The position numbers were made by a program, and so were the translations under genes. A stretch of DNA of 64,000 nucleotides from Escherichia coli (lineage in GTDB: Bacteria; Pseudomonadota; Gammaproteobacteria; Enterobacterales; Enterobacteriaceae), in NCBI RefSeq assembly GCF_044324875.1, contig NZ_CP172185.1; one strand, 5' to 3'. Below the pieces are notes generated by a model, which worked only from the letters and a program-made list of their open reading frames with translations, was not told the DNA's origin and did no database searches. Below are positions 46,958 to 49,075 of the stretch, in pieces; positions within the stretch are counted from its first letter, which is position 1, and every line of letters begins with the position of its first letter.

Positions 46958-47432
46958 AAAGTCCTGTCCAGAAAGAAGTCGGCCTCGCAAAAATGAATAA
47001 ACCCAGTTTCTCTTGCGCAACAGGTGGAGAAGTCGAATACGCAGTATGTAAAAAATGAGGCAACAGATTCACTGGGGAGGTCGCGAGGAGGCGCAATTCT
47101 ACAAAATTGCGCATTTCACTACCAGTCTGGAGTCAGCTCGGATATGAACTGCAACTATTGCAAATAAAGAAATTAAGCTGGAAGGCATCGCGCAATGAGG
47201 AAGATTGCCGGGTGCTGACGGTAAAAAGCAATCGTAAAATCAGCGGCAAGCCGGAAAGGTTCCGGTGAGGCGCAATGTTGCGGGGGCTTAATCCCTGGTG
47301 GCATTGGTTGCTGGAGAGAGAAAACCCCCGCACGTTGCAGGTATGCACCTGACAACACCACGGGGGCCATTCTTGCATCCAAACAATACAAGAATAGCCG
47401 CGAAACGTTGTCATTACAACTCAGGCGGCTAT

Positions 47433-47540
47433 ATGACGCTCGCAGAGCTGGGCATGGCCTTCTGGCATGATTTAGCGGCTCCGGTCATTGCTGGCATTCT
47501 TGCCAGCATGATCGTGAACTGGCTGAATAAGCGGAAGTAA
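47433..47540 (+). CDS. ldrD: Ldr type I toxin peptide (35 aa), copy 1
   Basis: MTLAELGMAFWHDLAAPVIAGILASMIVNWLNKRK; LdrD-type sequence. Confidence 0.8.
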   Translation: MTLAELGMAFWHDLAAPVIAGILASMIVNWLNKRK

Positions 47541-47915
47541 CGTGTCAGACGGGCGTCAGGCTGCCGTAATGGCAATTTGCGCCCGGACCAGGCCGCAGGG
47601 ATAAAACTCTGCGGCCTTTTTCGTAAGAAAAATGCAACGGTTGCAAGCGGATAATATTCTGCTGAATGCACAGCACAGAGTGAAGAAGTGATGGATTTCG
47701 ACGAACAAAAATGGCCGTAGAATCAGCGGCAAGCCGGAAGGGTTCCGGTGAGGCGCAATGTTGCGGGGGCTTAATCCCTGGTGGCATTGGTTGCTGGAGA
47801 GAGAAAACCCCCGCACGTTGCAGGTATGCACCTGACAACACCACGGGGGCCATTCTTGCATCTAGACCATTCAAGAATAGCCGCGAAACGTTGTCATTAC
47901 AACTCAGGCGGCTAT

Positions 47916-48023
47916 ATGACGCTCGCAGAACTGGGCATGGCCTTCTGGCATGATTTAGCGGCTCCGGTCATTGCTGGCATTCTTGCCAGCATGATCGTGA
48001 ACTGGCTGAACAAGCGGAAGTAA
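47916..48023 (+). CDS. Ldr type I toxin peptide (35 aa), copy 2
   Basis: Peptide identical to copy 1, 483 bp downstream. Confidence 0.8.
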   Translation: MTLAELGMAFWHDLAAPVIAGILASMIVNWLNKRK

Positions 48024-48398
48024 CGTGTCAGACGGGCGTCAGGCTGCCGTAATGGCAATTTGCGCCCGGACCAGGCCGCAGAGGTGAAACTCTGCGGCCT
48101 TTTTCGTAAGAAAAATGCAACGGCTGCAAGCGGATAATATTCTGCGGAATGCGCAGCACAGAGTGAAGAAGTGATGGATTTCGGAACAGAAAAACAGTCG
48201 TAGAATCAGCGGCAAGCCGGAAGGGTTCCGGTGAGGCGCAATGTTGCGGGGGCTTAATCCCTGGTGGCATTGGTTGCTGGAGAGAGAAAACCCCCGCACG
48301 TTGCAGGTATTCACCTGACAATATGACGGGGGCCATTCTTGAACCTACACAACTCAAGAATAGCCGCGAAACGTTGTCATTACAACACTGGCGGCTAT

Positions 48399-48506
48399 AT
48401 GACGCTCGCAGAGCTGGGCATGGCCTTCTGGCATGATTTAGCGGCTCCGGTCATTGCTGGCATTCTTGCCAGCATGATCGTGAACTGGCTGAATAAGCGG
48501 AAGTAA
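48399..48506 (+). CDS. Ldr type I toxin peptide (35 aa), copy 3
   Basis: Peptide identical to copy 1 (own translation; not listed in the ORF track because the upstream frame is short). Confidence 0.78.
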   Translation: MTLAELGMAFWHDLAAPVIAGILASMIVNWLNKRK

Positions 48507-48881
48507 CGTGTCAGACGGGCGTCAGGCTGCCGTAATGGCAATTTGCGCCCGGACCAGGCCGCAGAGGTGAAACTCTGCGGCCTTTTTCGTAAGAAAAATG
48601 CAACGGCTGCAAGCGGATAATATTCTGCGGAATGCGCAGCACAGAGTGAAGAAGTGATGGATTTCGACGAACAAAAATGGCCGTAGAATCAGCGGCAAGC
48701 CGGAAGGGTTCCGGTGAGGCGCAATGTTGCGGGGGCTTAATCCCTGGTGGCATTGGTTGCTGGAGAGAGAAAACCCCCGCACGTTGCAGGTATGCACCTG
48801 ACAACATCACGGGGGCTAATCTTGAACCCAAACAACTCAAGAATAGCCGCGAAACGTTGTCATTACAACAGAGGCGGCTAT

Positions 48882-48989
48882 ATGACGCTCGCAGAACTGG
48901 GCATGGCCTTCTGGCATGATTTAGCGGCTCCGGTCATTGCTGGCATTCTTGCCAGTCTGATCGTGAACTCGCTGAATAAGCGGAAGTAA
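48882..48989 (+). CDS. Ldr type I toxin peptide (35 aa), copy 4, variant
   Basis: MTLAELGMAFWHDLAAPVIAGILASLIVNSLNKRK; differs from copies 1-3 at M26L and W30S. Confidence 0.75.
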   Translation: MTLAELGMAFWHDLAAPVIAGILASLIVNSLNKRK

Positions 48990-49039
48990 CGTGTCATGCG
49001 GGCGTCAGGCTGCCGTAATGGCAATTTGCGCCCGGATCA

Positions 49040-49070
49040 GGCCGCAGGGGTGAAACTCTGCGGCCTTTTT
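49040..49070 (+). terminator. rho-independent terminator closing the last LDR unit
   Basis: ggccgcaggggtgaaactctgcggcc then ttttt; the same hairpin closes each repeat unit. Confidence 0.75.
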
Positions 49071-49075
49071 CGTTC

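What the first reader, a model, noticed from the sequence alone, without database searches (positions are those of the whole stretch)
47225..49073. Four-copy tandem LDR (ldr/rdl type I toxin-antitoxin) array at the yhjV-bcsG locus
Seen: four head-to-tail 483-bp units, each with a 35-codon Ldr ORF (starts at 47433, 47916, 48399, 48882), a conserved GC-rich leader and a terminator hairpin. Established knowledge (from memory of K-12): the locus between bcsG and yhjV carries a single ldrD-rdlD unit, and the tandem arrangement is at a different locus (ldrABC). Inference: the array has expanded here by unequal recombination. Copy number of a membrane-depolarising toxin and its antisense is dosage-sensitive, and the near-identical units are a recombination hotspot beside the bcs operon.
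Basis: partly seen in the sequence, partly recalled or inferred. Interest (0 to 1): 0.5.

Follow-up and report, generated by a model that had tools for sequence, protein, structure and literature searches.

The report
Four-copy ldr/rdl toxin-antitoxin array
This is a real tandem array of four Ldr toxin / Rdl antisense-RNA modules between yhjV and bcsG in E. coli, but arrays of two to five copies at this locus are the majority state in the species and already published, so it is ordinary; the single copy in K-12 is the reduced form.

Summary
Window 47233-49073 holds 3.8 head-to-tail copies of a 483-bp unit. Each unit has an intact 35-codon Ldr ORF (Pfam PF13940, E=1e-26), an Rfam rdlD antisense gene on the opposite strand 49-114 nt upstream of the ATG, and a terminator hairpin. 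The flanking genes are yhjV and bcsG.

In two evenly spaced samples of 5,426 complete E. coli genomes, about 37% have 1 copy at this locus, 11% have 2, 36% have 3, 15% have 4 and 1% have 5. RefSeq already annotates the four Ldr genes. A 2017 paper reports three ldrD/rdlD pairs between bcsG and yhjV in BL21(DE3).

The window's units differ from each other by 2.8-5.1%. Units 2-4 are identical to those of another strain, and some Rdl alleles are shared with other Escherichia species. So this is not a recent local expansion.

K-12's single unit equals unit 3 of the closely related E. coli B array, and its upstream part equals B's unit 1. K-12 is therefore a two-unit collapse. Unequal and allelic recombination in the array is real, with a breakpoint at the unit 1/unit 2 junction.

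One minor lead remains: the most variable parts of the unit are the Rdl 5' single-stranded tail and a 23-nt stretch of spacer just upstream of the ldr -10 box. The first hints at pair-specific antitoxin recognition.

The parts
47233..49073 (+). Whole LDR-D type array: three full 483-bp units plus a fourth unit that ends at its terminator
   Evidence: TRF period 483, 3.8 copies, 95% matches; alignment of the units, mean column identity 93%
47233..47715 (+). Unit 1 (Rdl allele a1). Its haplotype matches strain Ec-U4-19 rather than the BEC1 type
   Evidence: 3 core mismatches to Ec-U4-19 unit 1 versus 15 to BEC1 unit 1
47716..48198 (+). Unit 2 (Rdl allele a2)
   Evidence: Core identical to BEC1 unit 2
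48199..48681 (+). Unit 3 (Rdl allele a3)
   Evidence: Identical to BEC1 unit 3
48682..49073 (+). Unit 4 (Rdl allele a4), lacking the 91-bp inter-unit spacer and abutting the bcsG stop codon
   Evidence: Identical to BEC1 unit 4 and KE40 unit 2
47433..47540 (+). ldr ORF 1, 35 aa, MTLAELGMAFWHDLAAPVIAGILASMIVNWLNKRK
   Evidence: Translation; Pfam PF13940 Ldr_toxin 1-35/35, E=1e-26; same as WP_001295224.1, seen on at least 1000 contigs
47916..48023 (+). ldr ORF 2, same peptide
48399..48506 (+). ldr ORF 3, same peptide
48882..48989 (+). ldr ORF 4, variant peptide ...ASLIVNSLNKRK (M26L, W30S), which has no Trp after the hydrophobic helix
   Evidence: same as WP_000170736.1, the last copy in HS4, BEC1, CUVET19-970 and KE40; seen on at least 1000 contigs
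47319..47384 (-). rdl antisense RNA gene 1 (66 nt), complementary to the ldr 5' UTR 49-114 nt upstream of the ATG
   Evidence: Rfam RF01813, 81.7 bits against a gathering score of 50; fold has an 11-nt 5' tail and a long hairpin, z=-3.2; own terminator
47802..47867 (-). rdl gene 2
   Evidence: RF01813, 81.8 bits; z=-3.9
48285..48350 (-). rdl gene 3
   Evidence: RF01813, 78.3 bits; z=-4.2
48768..48833 (-). rdl gene 4
   Evidence: RF01813, 90.4 bits; z=-5.0
47590..47622 (+). ldr mRNA intrinsic terminator of unit 1; equivalents at 48073-48105, 48556-48588 and 49039-49071
   Evidence: 11-pair stem (8 G-C) plus a T run, found four times; conserved in Citrobacter and Salmonella
47235..47240 (+). Putative ldr -10 box, TAAAAT in unit 1 and TAGAAT at 47718-47723, 48201-48206 and 48684-48689. 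Inferred, not mapped
   Evidence: Cross-genus conservation starts abruptly at this hexamer. The strict sigma-70 scan found nothing
47391..47419 (-). Putative rdl promoter TTGTAA-17 nt-TATTCT, 6 nt before the Rdl 5' end; repeated at +483, +966 and +1449. Inferred
   Evidence: Read from the sequence; invariant among the four units; TTGCAA-17-TATCCT in the Citrobacter/Salmonella loci shown, with one exception
45686..46957 (-). Left flank: yhjV (aromatic amino acid transport family protein)
   Evidence: RefSeq annotation of collinear loci; tblastn 98-99.5%
49076..50755 (-). Right flank: bcsG (cellulose biosynthesis protein)
   Evidence: ORF; RefSeq annotation

Best explanation
The region is a natural allele of the E. 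coli LDR-D locus, made of four complete ldrD/rdlD-type type I toxin-antitoxin modules in tandem between yhjV and bcsG. In each unit a promoter at the unit's left edge drives an mRNA of about 380 nt. This mRNA has a roughly 190-nt structured 5' UTR, a 35-codon ORF for a small hydrophobic membrane toxin, and an intrinsic terminator. From the opposite strand, a promoter lying between the UTR target and the ORF drives a 66-nt Rdl RNA. Rdl is perfectly complementary to its own unit's 5' UTR, 49-114 nt upstream of the start codon. Rdl pairs with that UTR, the duplex is cut by RNase III, and toxin synthesis is kept off. All of this is shown for K-12 ldrD/rdlD and inferred here from homology. The array itself is old. 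Its units are diverged paralogues that are reshuffled, replaced and deleted by homologous recombination between units and between strains, which gives 1 to 5 copies in different E. coli strains. The window carries a common four-copy form that is a mosaic of two known haplotypes. K-12's single copy is a two-unit collapse of a three-copy array like the one in E. coli B.
For: Anatomy: TRF array; four intact ORFs; Pfam Ldr_toxin full length, E=1e-26; four rdlD matches at 78-90 bits; stable Rdl hairpins; terminators on both strands in each unit. Conservation of all these parts, starting exactly at the TAGAAT box, in Citrobacter, Salmonella and E. whittamii, with rdlD present in every outgroup locus tested. 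Population: spread samples give 22+22 loci with 1 copy, 7+6 with 2, 21+21 with 3, 8+10 with 4 and 1+0 with 5, out of 59+59 chromosomal rows. Twenty complete genomes have a four-copy array 99.0-99.1% identical to the window. Age: the units differ by 11-20 of 392 positions, and Rdl alleles a4, a5 and a13 are shared with Escherichia sp. E1V33 and E. whittamii. Recombination: K-12 has 0 mismatches to B unit 3 and shares B unit 1's upstream part; KE40 equals BEC1 units 1 and 4. Against BEC1, the window has 52 mismatches at 45212-47670 and none at 47671-49423, and 4 mismatches to Ec-U4-19 over 46400-47715. Mechanism in K-12: toxicity and its repression by RdlD (PMC4147584); an RNase III-cleaved ldrD/rdlD duplex in vivo (PMC7373196). 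Precedent: three ldrD/rdlD pairs between bcsG and yhjV in BL21(DE3), with RdlD antisense RNAs annotated from the transcriptome (PMC5435950).
Against: No expression or toxicity data exist for this strain. The promoters are inferred by eye and from conservation; the strict sigma-70 scan found none. How Rdl binding about 50 nt upstream of the ribosome-binding site blocks translation is unresolved in the literature, where the ldrX leader-ORF model is unconfirmed. Neither candidate upstream ORF is conserved: ATG 47275 is ACG in two Citrobacter species, and ATG 47343 is ATT in unit 3. Unit 4's peptide lacks the Trp that Fozo et al. call a superfamily signature, so it may be weakened. The copy-number frequencies are estimates from 2 x 59 sampled rows, and laboratory K-12 derivatives inflate the one-copy class.
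Confidence: 0.9

Rival explanations
1. One reading: a recent, strain-specific expansion from a K-12-like single unit by unequal crossing-over.
For: Tandem repeats do change copy number by unequal recombination, and whole-unit differences between related strains are seen. Single copies in Citrobacter, Salmonella and E. whittamii suggest that one copy was the deep ancestral state.
Against: The units differ by 2.8-5.1%. Three of the four units are identical to units in BEC1, and the fourth (unit 1) is nearly identical to unit 1 of Ec-U4-19. Their Rdl alleles also occur in other strains, and a4 in another Escherichia species. About 63% of complete genomes are multi-copy. K-12 itself is best explained as a deletion product of a B-type array.
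Confidence: 0.04
2. An assembly artefact: the true copy number in this strain differs because the repeat was mis-assembled.
For: A 483-bp repeat at 95% identity can be collapsed or expanded by short-read assemblers. The source and read type of the window are unknown.
Against: Each unit carries 11-20 private differences, so they can be told apart. The same four-unit order with identical units 2-4 occurs in BEC1, and 20 complete genomes have a four-copy array 99.0-99.1% identical to the window. The unit spacing is exactly 483 bp with no junction anomalies.
Confidence: 0.03
3. The array is partly a set of decaying relics, and some units, unit 4 in particular, no longer make an active toxin.
For: Unit 4's Ldr has W30S and M26L, which removes the only Trp after the helix. 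Every other Ldr recovered from Escherichia, Citrobacter, Salmonella, Kluyvera and Pseudocitrobacter keeps at least one Trp at these two positions. Fozo et al. describe this Trp as a superfamily signature.
Against: All four units keep intact ORFs, Rdl genes, promoter-like boxes and terminators. The W30S peptide is seen on at least 1000 contigs, including Shigella sonnei, and its ORF is not disrupted in any locus examined.
Confidence: 0.15

Closest known systems
ldrD/rdlD (LDR-D) of E. coli K-12, between yhjV and bcsG
   Same: Same locus and orientation. The peptide is the same length and differs at one residue (L3 here, F3 in K-12). The Rdl is the same 66 nt (Rfam RF01813), at the same position relative to the ORF, with the same terminator.
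   Different: Four units instead of one. K-12's unit carries Rdl allele a6, which is not among the window's four alleles a1-a4.
Three ldrD/rdlD pairs between bcsG and yhjV in E. coli BL21(DE3) / B (Kim et al. 2017, PMC5435950)
   Same: Tandem multi-copy array at exactly this locus, with the same 483-bp period.
   Different: Three units rather than four, with a different set and order of unit alleles: a4, a1, a6 in B and a1, a2, a3, a4 here.
Four-copy arrays annotated in RefSeq, for example BEC1-S17-ESBL-09 (NZ_AP022298.1)
   Same: Four units. Units 2-4 and the adjacent bcsG 3' end are identical to the window.
   Different: Unit 1 and yhjV belong to a different haplotype, with 52 mismatches left of 47671.
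ldrA-ldrB-ldrC / rdlA-C tandem array of K-12
   Same: Same family and the same tandem organisation of complete toxin plus antisense units (PMC4147584).
   Different: Different chromosomal locus and a different Ldr subgroup, with a ...IVSWWRNRK type C-terminus. Fozo et al. infer that the LdrB and LdrD groups split in the enterobacterial ancestor.
ibs/sib type I toxin-antitoxin repeats (Han et al. 2010, PMC2943612)
   Same: Multi-copy cis-antisense toxin-antitoxin modules in which each sRNA represses only its cognate mRNA. This is a model for what the variable Rdl 5' tail might do (abstract).
   Different: Unrelated sequences. Sib overlaps the ORF, whereas Rdl overlaps only the 5' UTR. Discrimination between Rdl paralogues has not been tested.

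Membership tests
Ldr/Rdl type I toxin-antitoxin (LDR repeat) | 35-residue hydrophobic Ldr peptide | tested here: met
   Pfam PF13940 Ldr_toxin, model 1-35 of 35, E=1e-26. Four intact 35-codon ORFs. NCBIfam HMMs gave no hit, but RefSeq names the identical proteins 'Ldr family protein'.
Ldr/Rdl type I toxin-antitoxin (LDR repeat) | [quoted passage not shown] | tested here: met
   Four RF01813 matches at 78-90 bits (gathering score 50), full model length, minus strand. Each lies 49-114 nt upstream of its ATG.
Ldr/Rdl type I toxin-antitoxin (LDR repeat) | Long direct repeat unit of about 0.5 kb carrying both genes | tested here: met
   483-bp period, 3.8 copies.
Ldr/Rdl type I toxin-antitoxin (LDR repeat) | Ldr overexpression kills or arrests the cell, and the cognate Rdl relieves this | not testable with these tools
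   Shown for K-12 LdrD/RdlD only (PMC4147584; PMC7472228).
Ldr/Rdl type I toxin-antitoxin (LDR repeat) | Sense and antisense transcripts are made and form a duplex cleaved by RNase III | not testable with these tools
   Shown in K-12 (PMC7373196). RdlD antisense RNAs from the three-pair array in BL21(DE3) were annotated from its transcriptome (PMC5435950). Here only terminators and promoter-like boxes were found.
LDR-D subgroup (ldrD locus) | Location between yhjV and bcsG and an LdrD-type peptide (...ILASMIVNWLNKRK) | tested here: met
   Flanks identified. The peptides differ from K-12 LdrD by 1 residue in units 1-3 and by 3 residues in unit 4.
Fst/Ldr superfamily signature (Fozo et al. 2010) | [quoted passage not shown] | tested here: inconclusive
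   Met in units 1-3 (NWLNKRK). Not met in unit 4 (NSLNKRK), although its charged tail is kept (definition).

The most novel reading that the evidence does not exclude
The tandem units are not redundant copies but a set of mutually orthogonal toxin-antitoxin pairs. Diversity peaks in the Rdl 5' single-stranded tail and just upstream of the Rdl start (pi about 0.20, against 0.05 at third codon positions). Non-cognate Rdl/UTR pairs in the window differ at 2-8 positions, all within Rdl nt 1-40. Arrays almost never hold the same Rdl allele twice: 1 duplicate observed against 3.9 expected, P=0.057. Some alleles are shared across Escherichia species. This would fit selection that keeps several distinct recognition alleles per array and shuffles them as cassettes.
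Probability: 0.25. Interest if true: 0.4.

Novelty: already known. Interest (0 to 1): 0.12.

Why it matters
It matters little as a discovery. The family, the locus and its copy-number variation are all on record: BL21(DE3) is published with three pairs, and many RefSeq genomes are annotated with four. Three points are still useful. First, K-12 is not the baseline for this locus. It is a collapsed derivative, so studies of 'ldrD' in K-12 describe a minority, reduced state. Second, the array is a clean natural example of whole-unit deletion, unit replacement and inter-strain recombination inside a toxin-antitoxin repeat. Third, the concentration of variation in the Rdl 5' tail gives a testable hypothesis about cognate-pair specificity among Ldr/Rdl paralogues. 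As far as the papers I could search show, this has not been examined.

Tried and rejected
NCBIfam HMM scan of both peptides gave no hit, so Pfam was used instead.

The strict sigma-70 consensus scan found no promoter in 47000-49150. Promoter boxes were therefore inferred from cross-genus conservation and by eye.

Kawano 2012 (RNA Biol) and Kawano 2002 (DNA Res) are not held in the library. I did not try to fetch Kawano 2002 (Mol Microbiol) and cite it only through other papers, so mapped transcript ends could not be taken from the primary papers.

I considered a mok-like leader ORF. The 25-codon ORF starting at 47275 is present in all four units, but its ATG is ACG in C. sedlakii and C. amalonaticus. 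The in-frame ATG at 47343 is ATT in unit 3 and absent in the Citrobacter/Salmonella sequences of that alignment. Neither is conserved, so I do not rely on translational coupling. I could not check which ORF Gerdes and Wagner called ldrX.

I considered an assembly artefact and a recent expansion and rejected both (see the rival explanations).

The test for positive selection on the Rdl tail was inconclusive. Its diversity equals that of the spacer segment just upstream of the ldr -10 box, and the within-array distinctness test gave P=0.057 on 13 non-independent strains.

An exact genome-wide copy-number count was not possible, because the search tool lists at most 60 rows. I used two evenly spaced samples instead.
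Full report

Yes. Tandem Repeats Finder reports a single array at 47233-49073 with period 483, 3.8 copies, 95% matches, no indels and score 3342. An alignment of the four units shows 93% mean column identity.

Units 1-3 encode MTLAELGMAFWHDLAAPVIAGILASMIVNWLNKRK. Unit 4 encodes a variant ending ...ASLIVNSLNKRK.

Each unit ends in a hairpin of 11 pairs (8 G-C) followed by a T run. The fourth unit stops right after its terminator, 3 bp from the stop codon of the convergent gene.

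Comparison with annotated RefSeq genomes identifies the flanks as yhjV (45686-46957, minus strand) and bcsG (49076-50755, minus strand).

**2. What is it?**

The peptide matches Pfam Ldr_toxin (PF13940) over the full 35-position model at E=1e-26.

On the opposite strand, Rfam's rdlD antitoxin model (RF01813) matches four times over its full 66 positions. The matches are at 47319-47384, 47802-47867, 48285-48350 and 48768-48833, at 78-90 bits against a gathering score of 50. [quoted passage not shown]

Each Rdl folds into an 11-nt single-stranded 5' tail followed by a long hairpin, with z-scores from -3.2 to -5.0, and has its own terminator-like site.

An alignment with the single-copy loci of Citrobacter, Salmonella enterica subsp. 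arizonae and diarizonae, and E. whittamii shows that conservation begins abruptly at a TAGAAT/TAATAT hexamer (window 47235-47240, TAAAAT in unit 1). It then runs through the 5' UTR, the rdl region, the ORF and the terminator. I read that hexamer as the -10 box of the ldr promoter. This is inference, since the strict sigma-70 scan found nothing.

For rdl, a TTGTAA-17 nt-TATTCT arrangement sits 6 nt before the Rdl 5' end. It is invariant among the four units, and in the Citrobacter/Salmonella loci of that alignment it reads TTGCAA-17-TATCCT, with one exception. This too is inferred.

rdlD is detected next to the Ldr ORF in every outgroup locus tested.

**3. How it most likely works**

For K-12 ldrD/rdlD the literature reports several things. 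LdrD overproduction is toxic and co-expression of RdlD relieves this (review PMC4147584). LdrD overexpression causes nucleoid condensation (PMC7472228). An approximately 21-nt RNase III product of the ldrD/rdlD duplex is captured in vivo, and both transcripts are slightly stabilised in an rnc mutant (PMC7373196).

By homology, each unit here should make a stable toxin mRNA of about 380 nt and a 66-nt antisense RNA. The antisense RNA pairs with the UTR, triggers RNase III cleavage and keeps translation off.

How pairing about 50 nt upstream of the ribosome-binding site blocks translation is not settled. The ldrX leader-ORF idea is described as unconfirmed. Two upstream ORFs are visible here. 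One is a 25-codon ORF from ATG 47275, and the other is an in-frame ATG at 47343. Neither is conserved: the first ATG is ACG in two Citrobacter species, and the second is ATT in unit 3 and absent in the Citrobacter/Salmonella sequences of that alignment. I therefore do not rely on translational coupling.

The one paper I read on this found only a small rise in DiBAC4(3) signal in an rdlD mutant and no effect of ldrD or rdlD mutants on proton-gradient dissipation (PMC11997105).

**4. Is four copies at this locus unusual?**

No. I searched the array plus flanks against 5,426 complete E. coli genomes and listed 60 records at even steps down the ranking, twice, with different flank lengths. Locus span and the annotated Ldr count give the copy number.

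| Copies at locus | Sample 1 (of 59) | Sample 2 (of 59) | Approx. share |
|---|---|---|---|
| 1 | 22 | 22 | 37% |
| 2 | 7 | 6 | 11% |
| 3 | 21 | 21 | 36% |
| 4 | 8 | 10 | 15% |
| 5 | 1 | 0 | 1% |

Laboratory K-12 derivatives inflate the one-copy class.

Direct inspection confirmed one copy in K-12 MG1655 and O157:H7, two in Nissle 1917 and KE40, three in ST131 strain 751, Ec-U4-19 and an E. coli B derivative, four in BEC1-S17-ESBL-09, 2012C-4502, War and CUVET19-970, and five in HS4.

Twenty complete genomes carry a four-copy array 99.0-99.1% identical to the window. RefSeq annotates all these ORFs as 'type I toxin-antitoxin system toxin Ldr family protein'. Both peptide variants in the window are each seen on at least 1000 public contigs.

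The variation is also in print. Kim et al. 2017 state that K-12 has one ldrD/rdlD pair while BL21(DE3) has three pairs between bcsG and yhjV (PMC5435950). Fozo et al. 2010 describe lineage-specific duplications of the LdrD and LdrB groups and list 10 Ldr/Fst genes in Shigella sonnei Ss046 (PMC2887945).

**5. Direction of change**

The data point the other way for K-12.

The four units in the window differ pairwise at 11-20 of 392 core positions, or 2.8-5.1%, so they are not fresh duplicates. Units 2, 3 and 4 are identical to units 2, 3 and 4 of BEC1. Unit 1 differs from BEC1's unit 1 at 15 core sites but from Ec-U4-19's unit 1 at only 3.

Along the chromosome, the window and BEC1 differ at 52 sites between 45212 and 47670 and at none between 47671 and 49423. 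The window and Ec-U4-19 differ at 4 sites between 46400 and 47715. The window is therefore a mosaic of two known haplotypes, with a breakpoint at the unit 1/unit 2 junction.

K-12's only unit has no mismatch to unit 3 of the E. coli B derivative across unit positions 1-395. K-12's left flank and positions 1-125 match B's unit 1. The yhjV and bcsG proteins of the two strains are identical. B's units 1 and 2 differ from its unit 3 at 11 and 23 core sites, so they cannot be recent copies of a K-12-type unit. K-12 is thus a deletion of exactly two units by a crossover within the first 125 nt.

Likewise, the two-copy strain KE40 equals BEC1's units 1 and 4.

At a deeper level, one copy is probably ancestral. 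Citrobacter, Salmonella and E. whittamii have one copy beside bcsG, and in most of these loci also yhjV. Escherichia sp. E1V33 and a divergent 'E. coli' species representative have two. Kluyvera expanded independently to three. Some Rdl alleles (a4, a5, a13) are shared between E. coli and other Escherichia species. This places the divergence of the units at or before the diversification of E. coli, or else implies exchange between species. That last step is inference.

**6. A minor lead**

Across 40 E. coli units, nucleotide diversity is low in the 5' UTR, the ORF and the promoters but peaks at unit positions 141-158. These positions cover the Rdl 5' single-stranded tail and the few bases upstream of its start. 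The segment encoding Rdl nt 1-40 holds 13 of 60 polymorphic sites in 40 of 392 positions (Fisher p=0.004).

In the 27 non-terminal units, pi there is about 0.20, against 0.053 at third codon positions. However, a 23-nt stretch of spacer just upstream of the ldr -10 box is equally diverse, also at 0.20.

In the window, non-cognate Rdl/UTR pairs differ at 2-8 positions, all within Rdl nt 1-40. Predicted duplex energies for Rdl nt 1-20 are -34 to -37 kcal/mol for cognate pairs and -13 to -34 for non-cognate pairs.

There are 17 Rdl(1-40) alleles among 45 units. They occupy different positions in different strains. The same allele occurs twice in one array only once, against 3.9 expected by shuffling (P=0.057).

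This is compatible with selection for distinct, pair-specific antitoxins, as shown for Sib/Ibs. It is equally compatible with low constraint on old paralogues. I rate it a hypothesis only.

**7. Unit 4's peptide**

Unit 4's Ldr has W30S, which removes the Trp that Fozo et al. call a superfamily signature. All other Ldr peptides recovered from five genera keep at least one Trp at these two positions.

The variant is widespread and is the terminal copy in HS4, BEC1, CUVET19-970 and KE40. Whether it is still toxic is unknown.

**8. Verdict**

The feature is real and correctly identified as an ldr/rdl array, but it is ordinary. The family, the locus and its copy-number polymorphism are known and annotated.

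The inference of a local expansion is not supported, and K-12 is the reduced form. There is no evidence for dosage sensitivity, since each unit carries its own antitoxin and natural strains hold one to five units. The claim of recombination activity within the array is supported.

Novelty: already known. Interest: low.

Noticed in passing
window 48882-48989: The Ldr of the last unit carries W30S and M26L and so lacks the Trp described as a signature of the Fst/Ldr superfamily. The same protein (WP_000170736.1) is the terminal copy in HS4, BEC1, CUVET19-970 and KE40, and it is seen on at least 1000 contigs. It may be an attenuated toxin.
   Followed up: partly
window 47373-47390 and equivalents (unit positions 141-158); also unit positions 461-483: There are two diversity hot spots in the LDR unit, each with pi about 0.20 against a unit mean of about 0.04-0.05 (0.038 over the 392-nt core, 0.046 over the full unit). 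One is the Rdl 5' tail and start region, and the other is the 23 nt just upstream of the ldr -10 box. Sites are mostly biallelic at intermediate frequency, as if two old haplotypes persist.
   Followed up: partly
window 22550-22703 (+): Rfam sok antitoxin match (RF01794, 86 bits), so a second type I toxin-antitoxin locus (hok/sok type) lies in the same window. A cspA thermoregulator is at 24826-25253 (-), a tRNA at 37885-37958 (+) and an ES036 sRNA at 3758-3800 (+).
   Followed up: no
NZ_CP195449.1 (195-kb E. coli plasmid) 122138-122501; 28 plasmid places in all: Ldr-family units about 81% identical to the window's occur on a few E. coli plasmids, although chromosomal ldr loci are usually described as not mobile.
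   Followed up: no
H46 NZ_CP157095.1, H64 NZ_CP124442.1, H83 NZ_CM129851.1, H145 NZ_CP059917.1; L049 (2012C-4502): In some strains the locus is interrupted by insertion sequences: an integrase-domain gene, IS1 splitting bcsG, or IS200C within or next to the array. In 2012C-4502, bcsG is annotated as frameshifted.
   Followed up: no
L048 (NZ_JABWSY010000055.1, 'Bacillus sp.' 503-bp contig, coverage 0.66): A 503-bp, very low-coverage contig in a Bacillus assembly encodes an E. coli LdrD-like peptide (MPFAELGMAFWHDL...). This is almost certainly contamination of that assembly.
   Followed up: no
L006 (E. albertii NBRC 107761, 2423-bp contig): The contig carrying bcsG ends inside the LDR unit, which suggests that the E. 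albertii draft assembly broke at a multi-copy array. Its copy number there is unknown.
   Followed up: no
L044 (Kluyvera sichuanensis) 6743-7932; L045 (K. ascorbata): Kluyvera has its own tandem Ldr/Rdl arrays next to bcsG, with three copies and a period of about 500-530 bp. This is an independent expansion at the syntenic locus. Its rdlD scores are lower, at 56-60 bits.
   Followed up: partly
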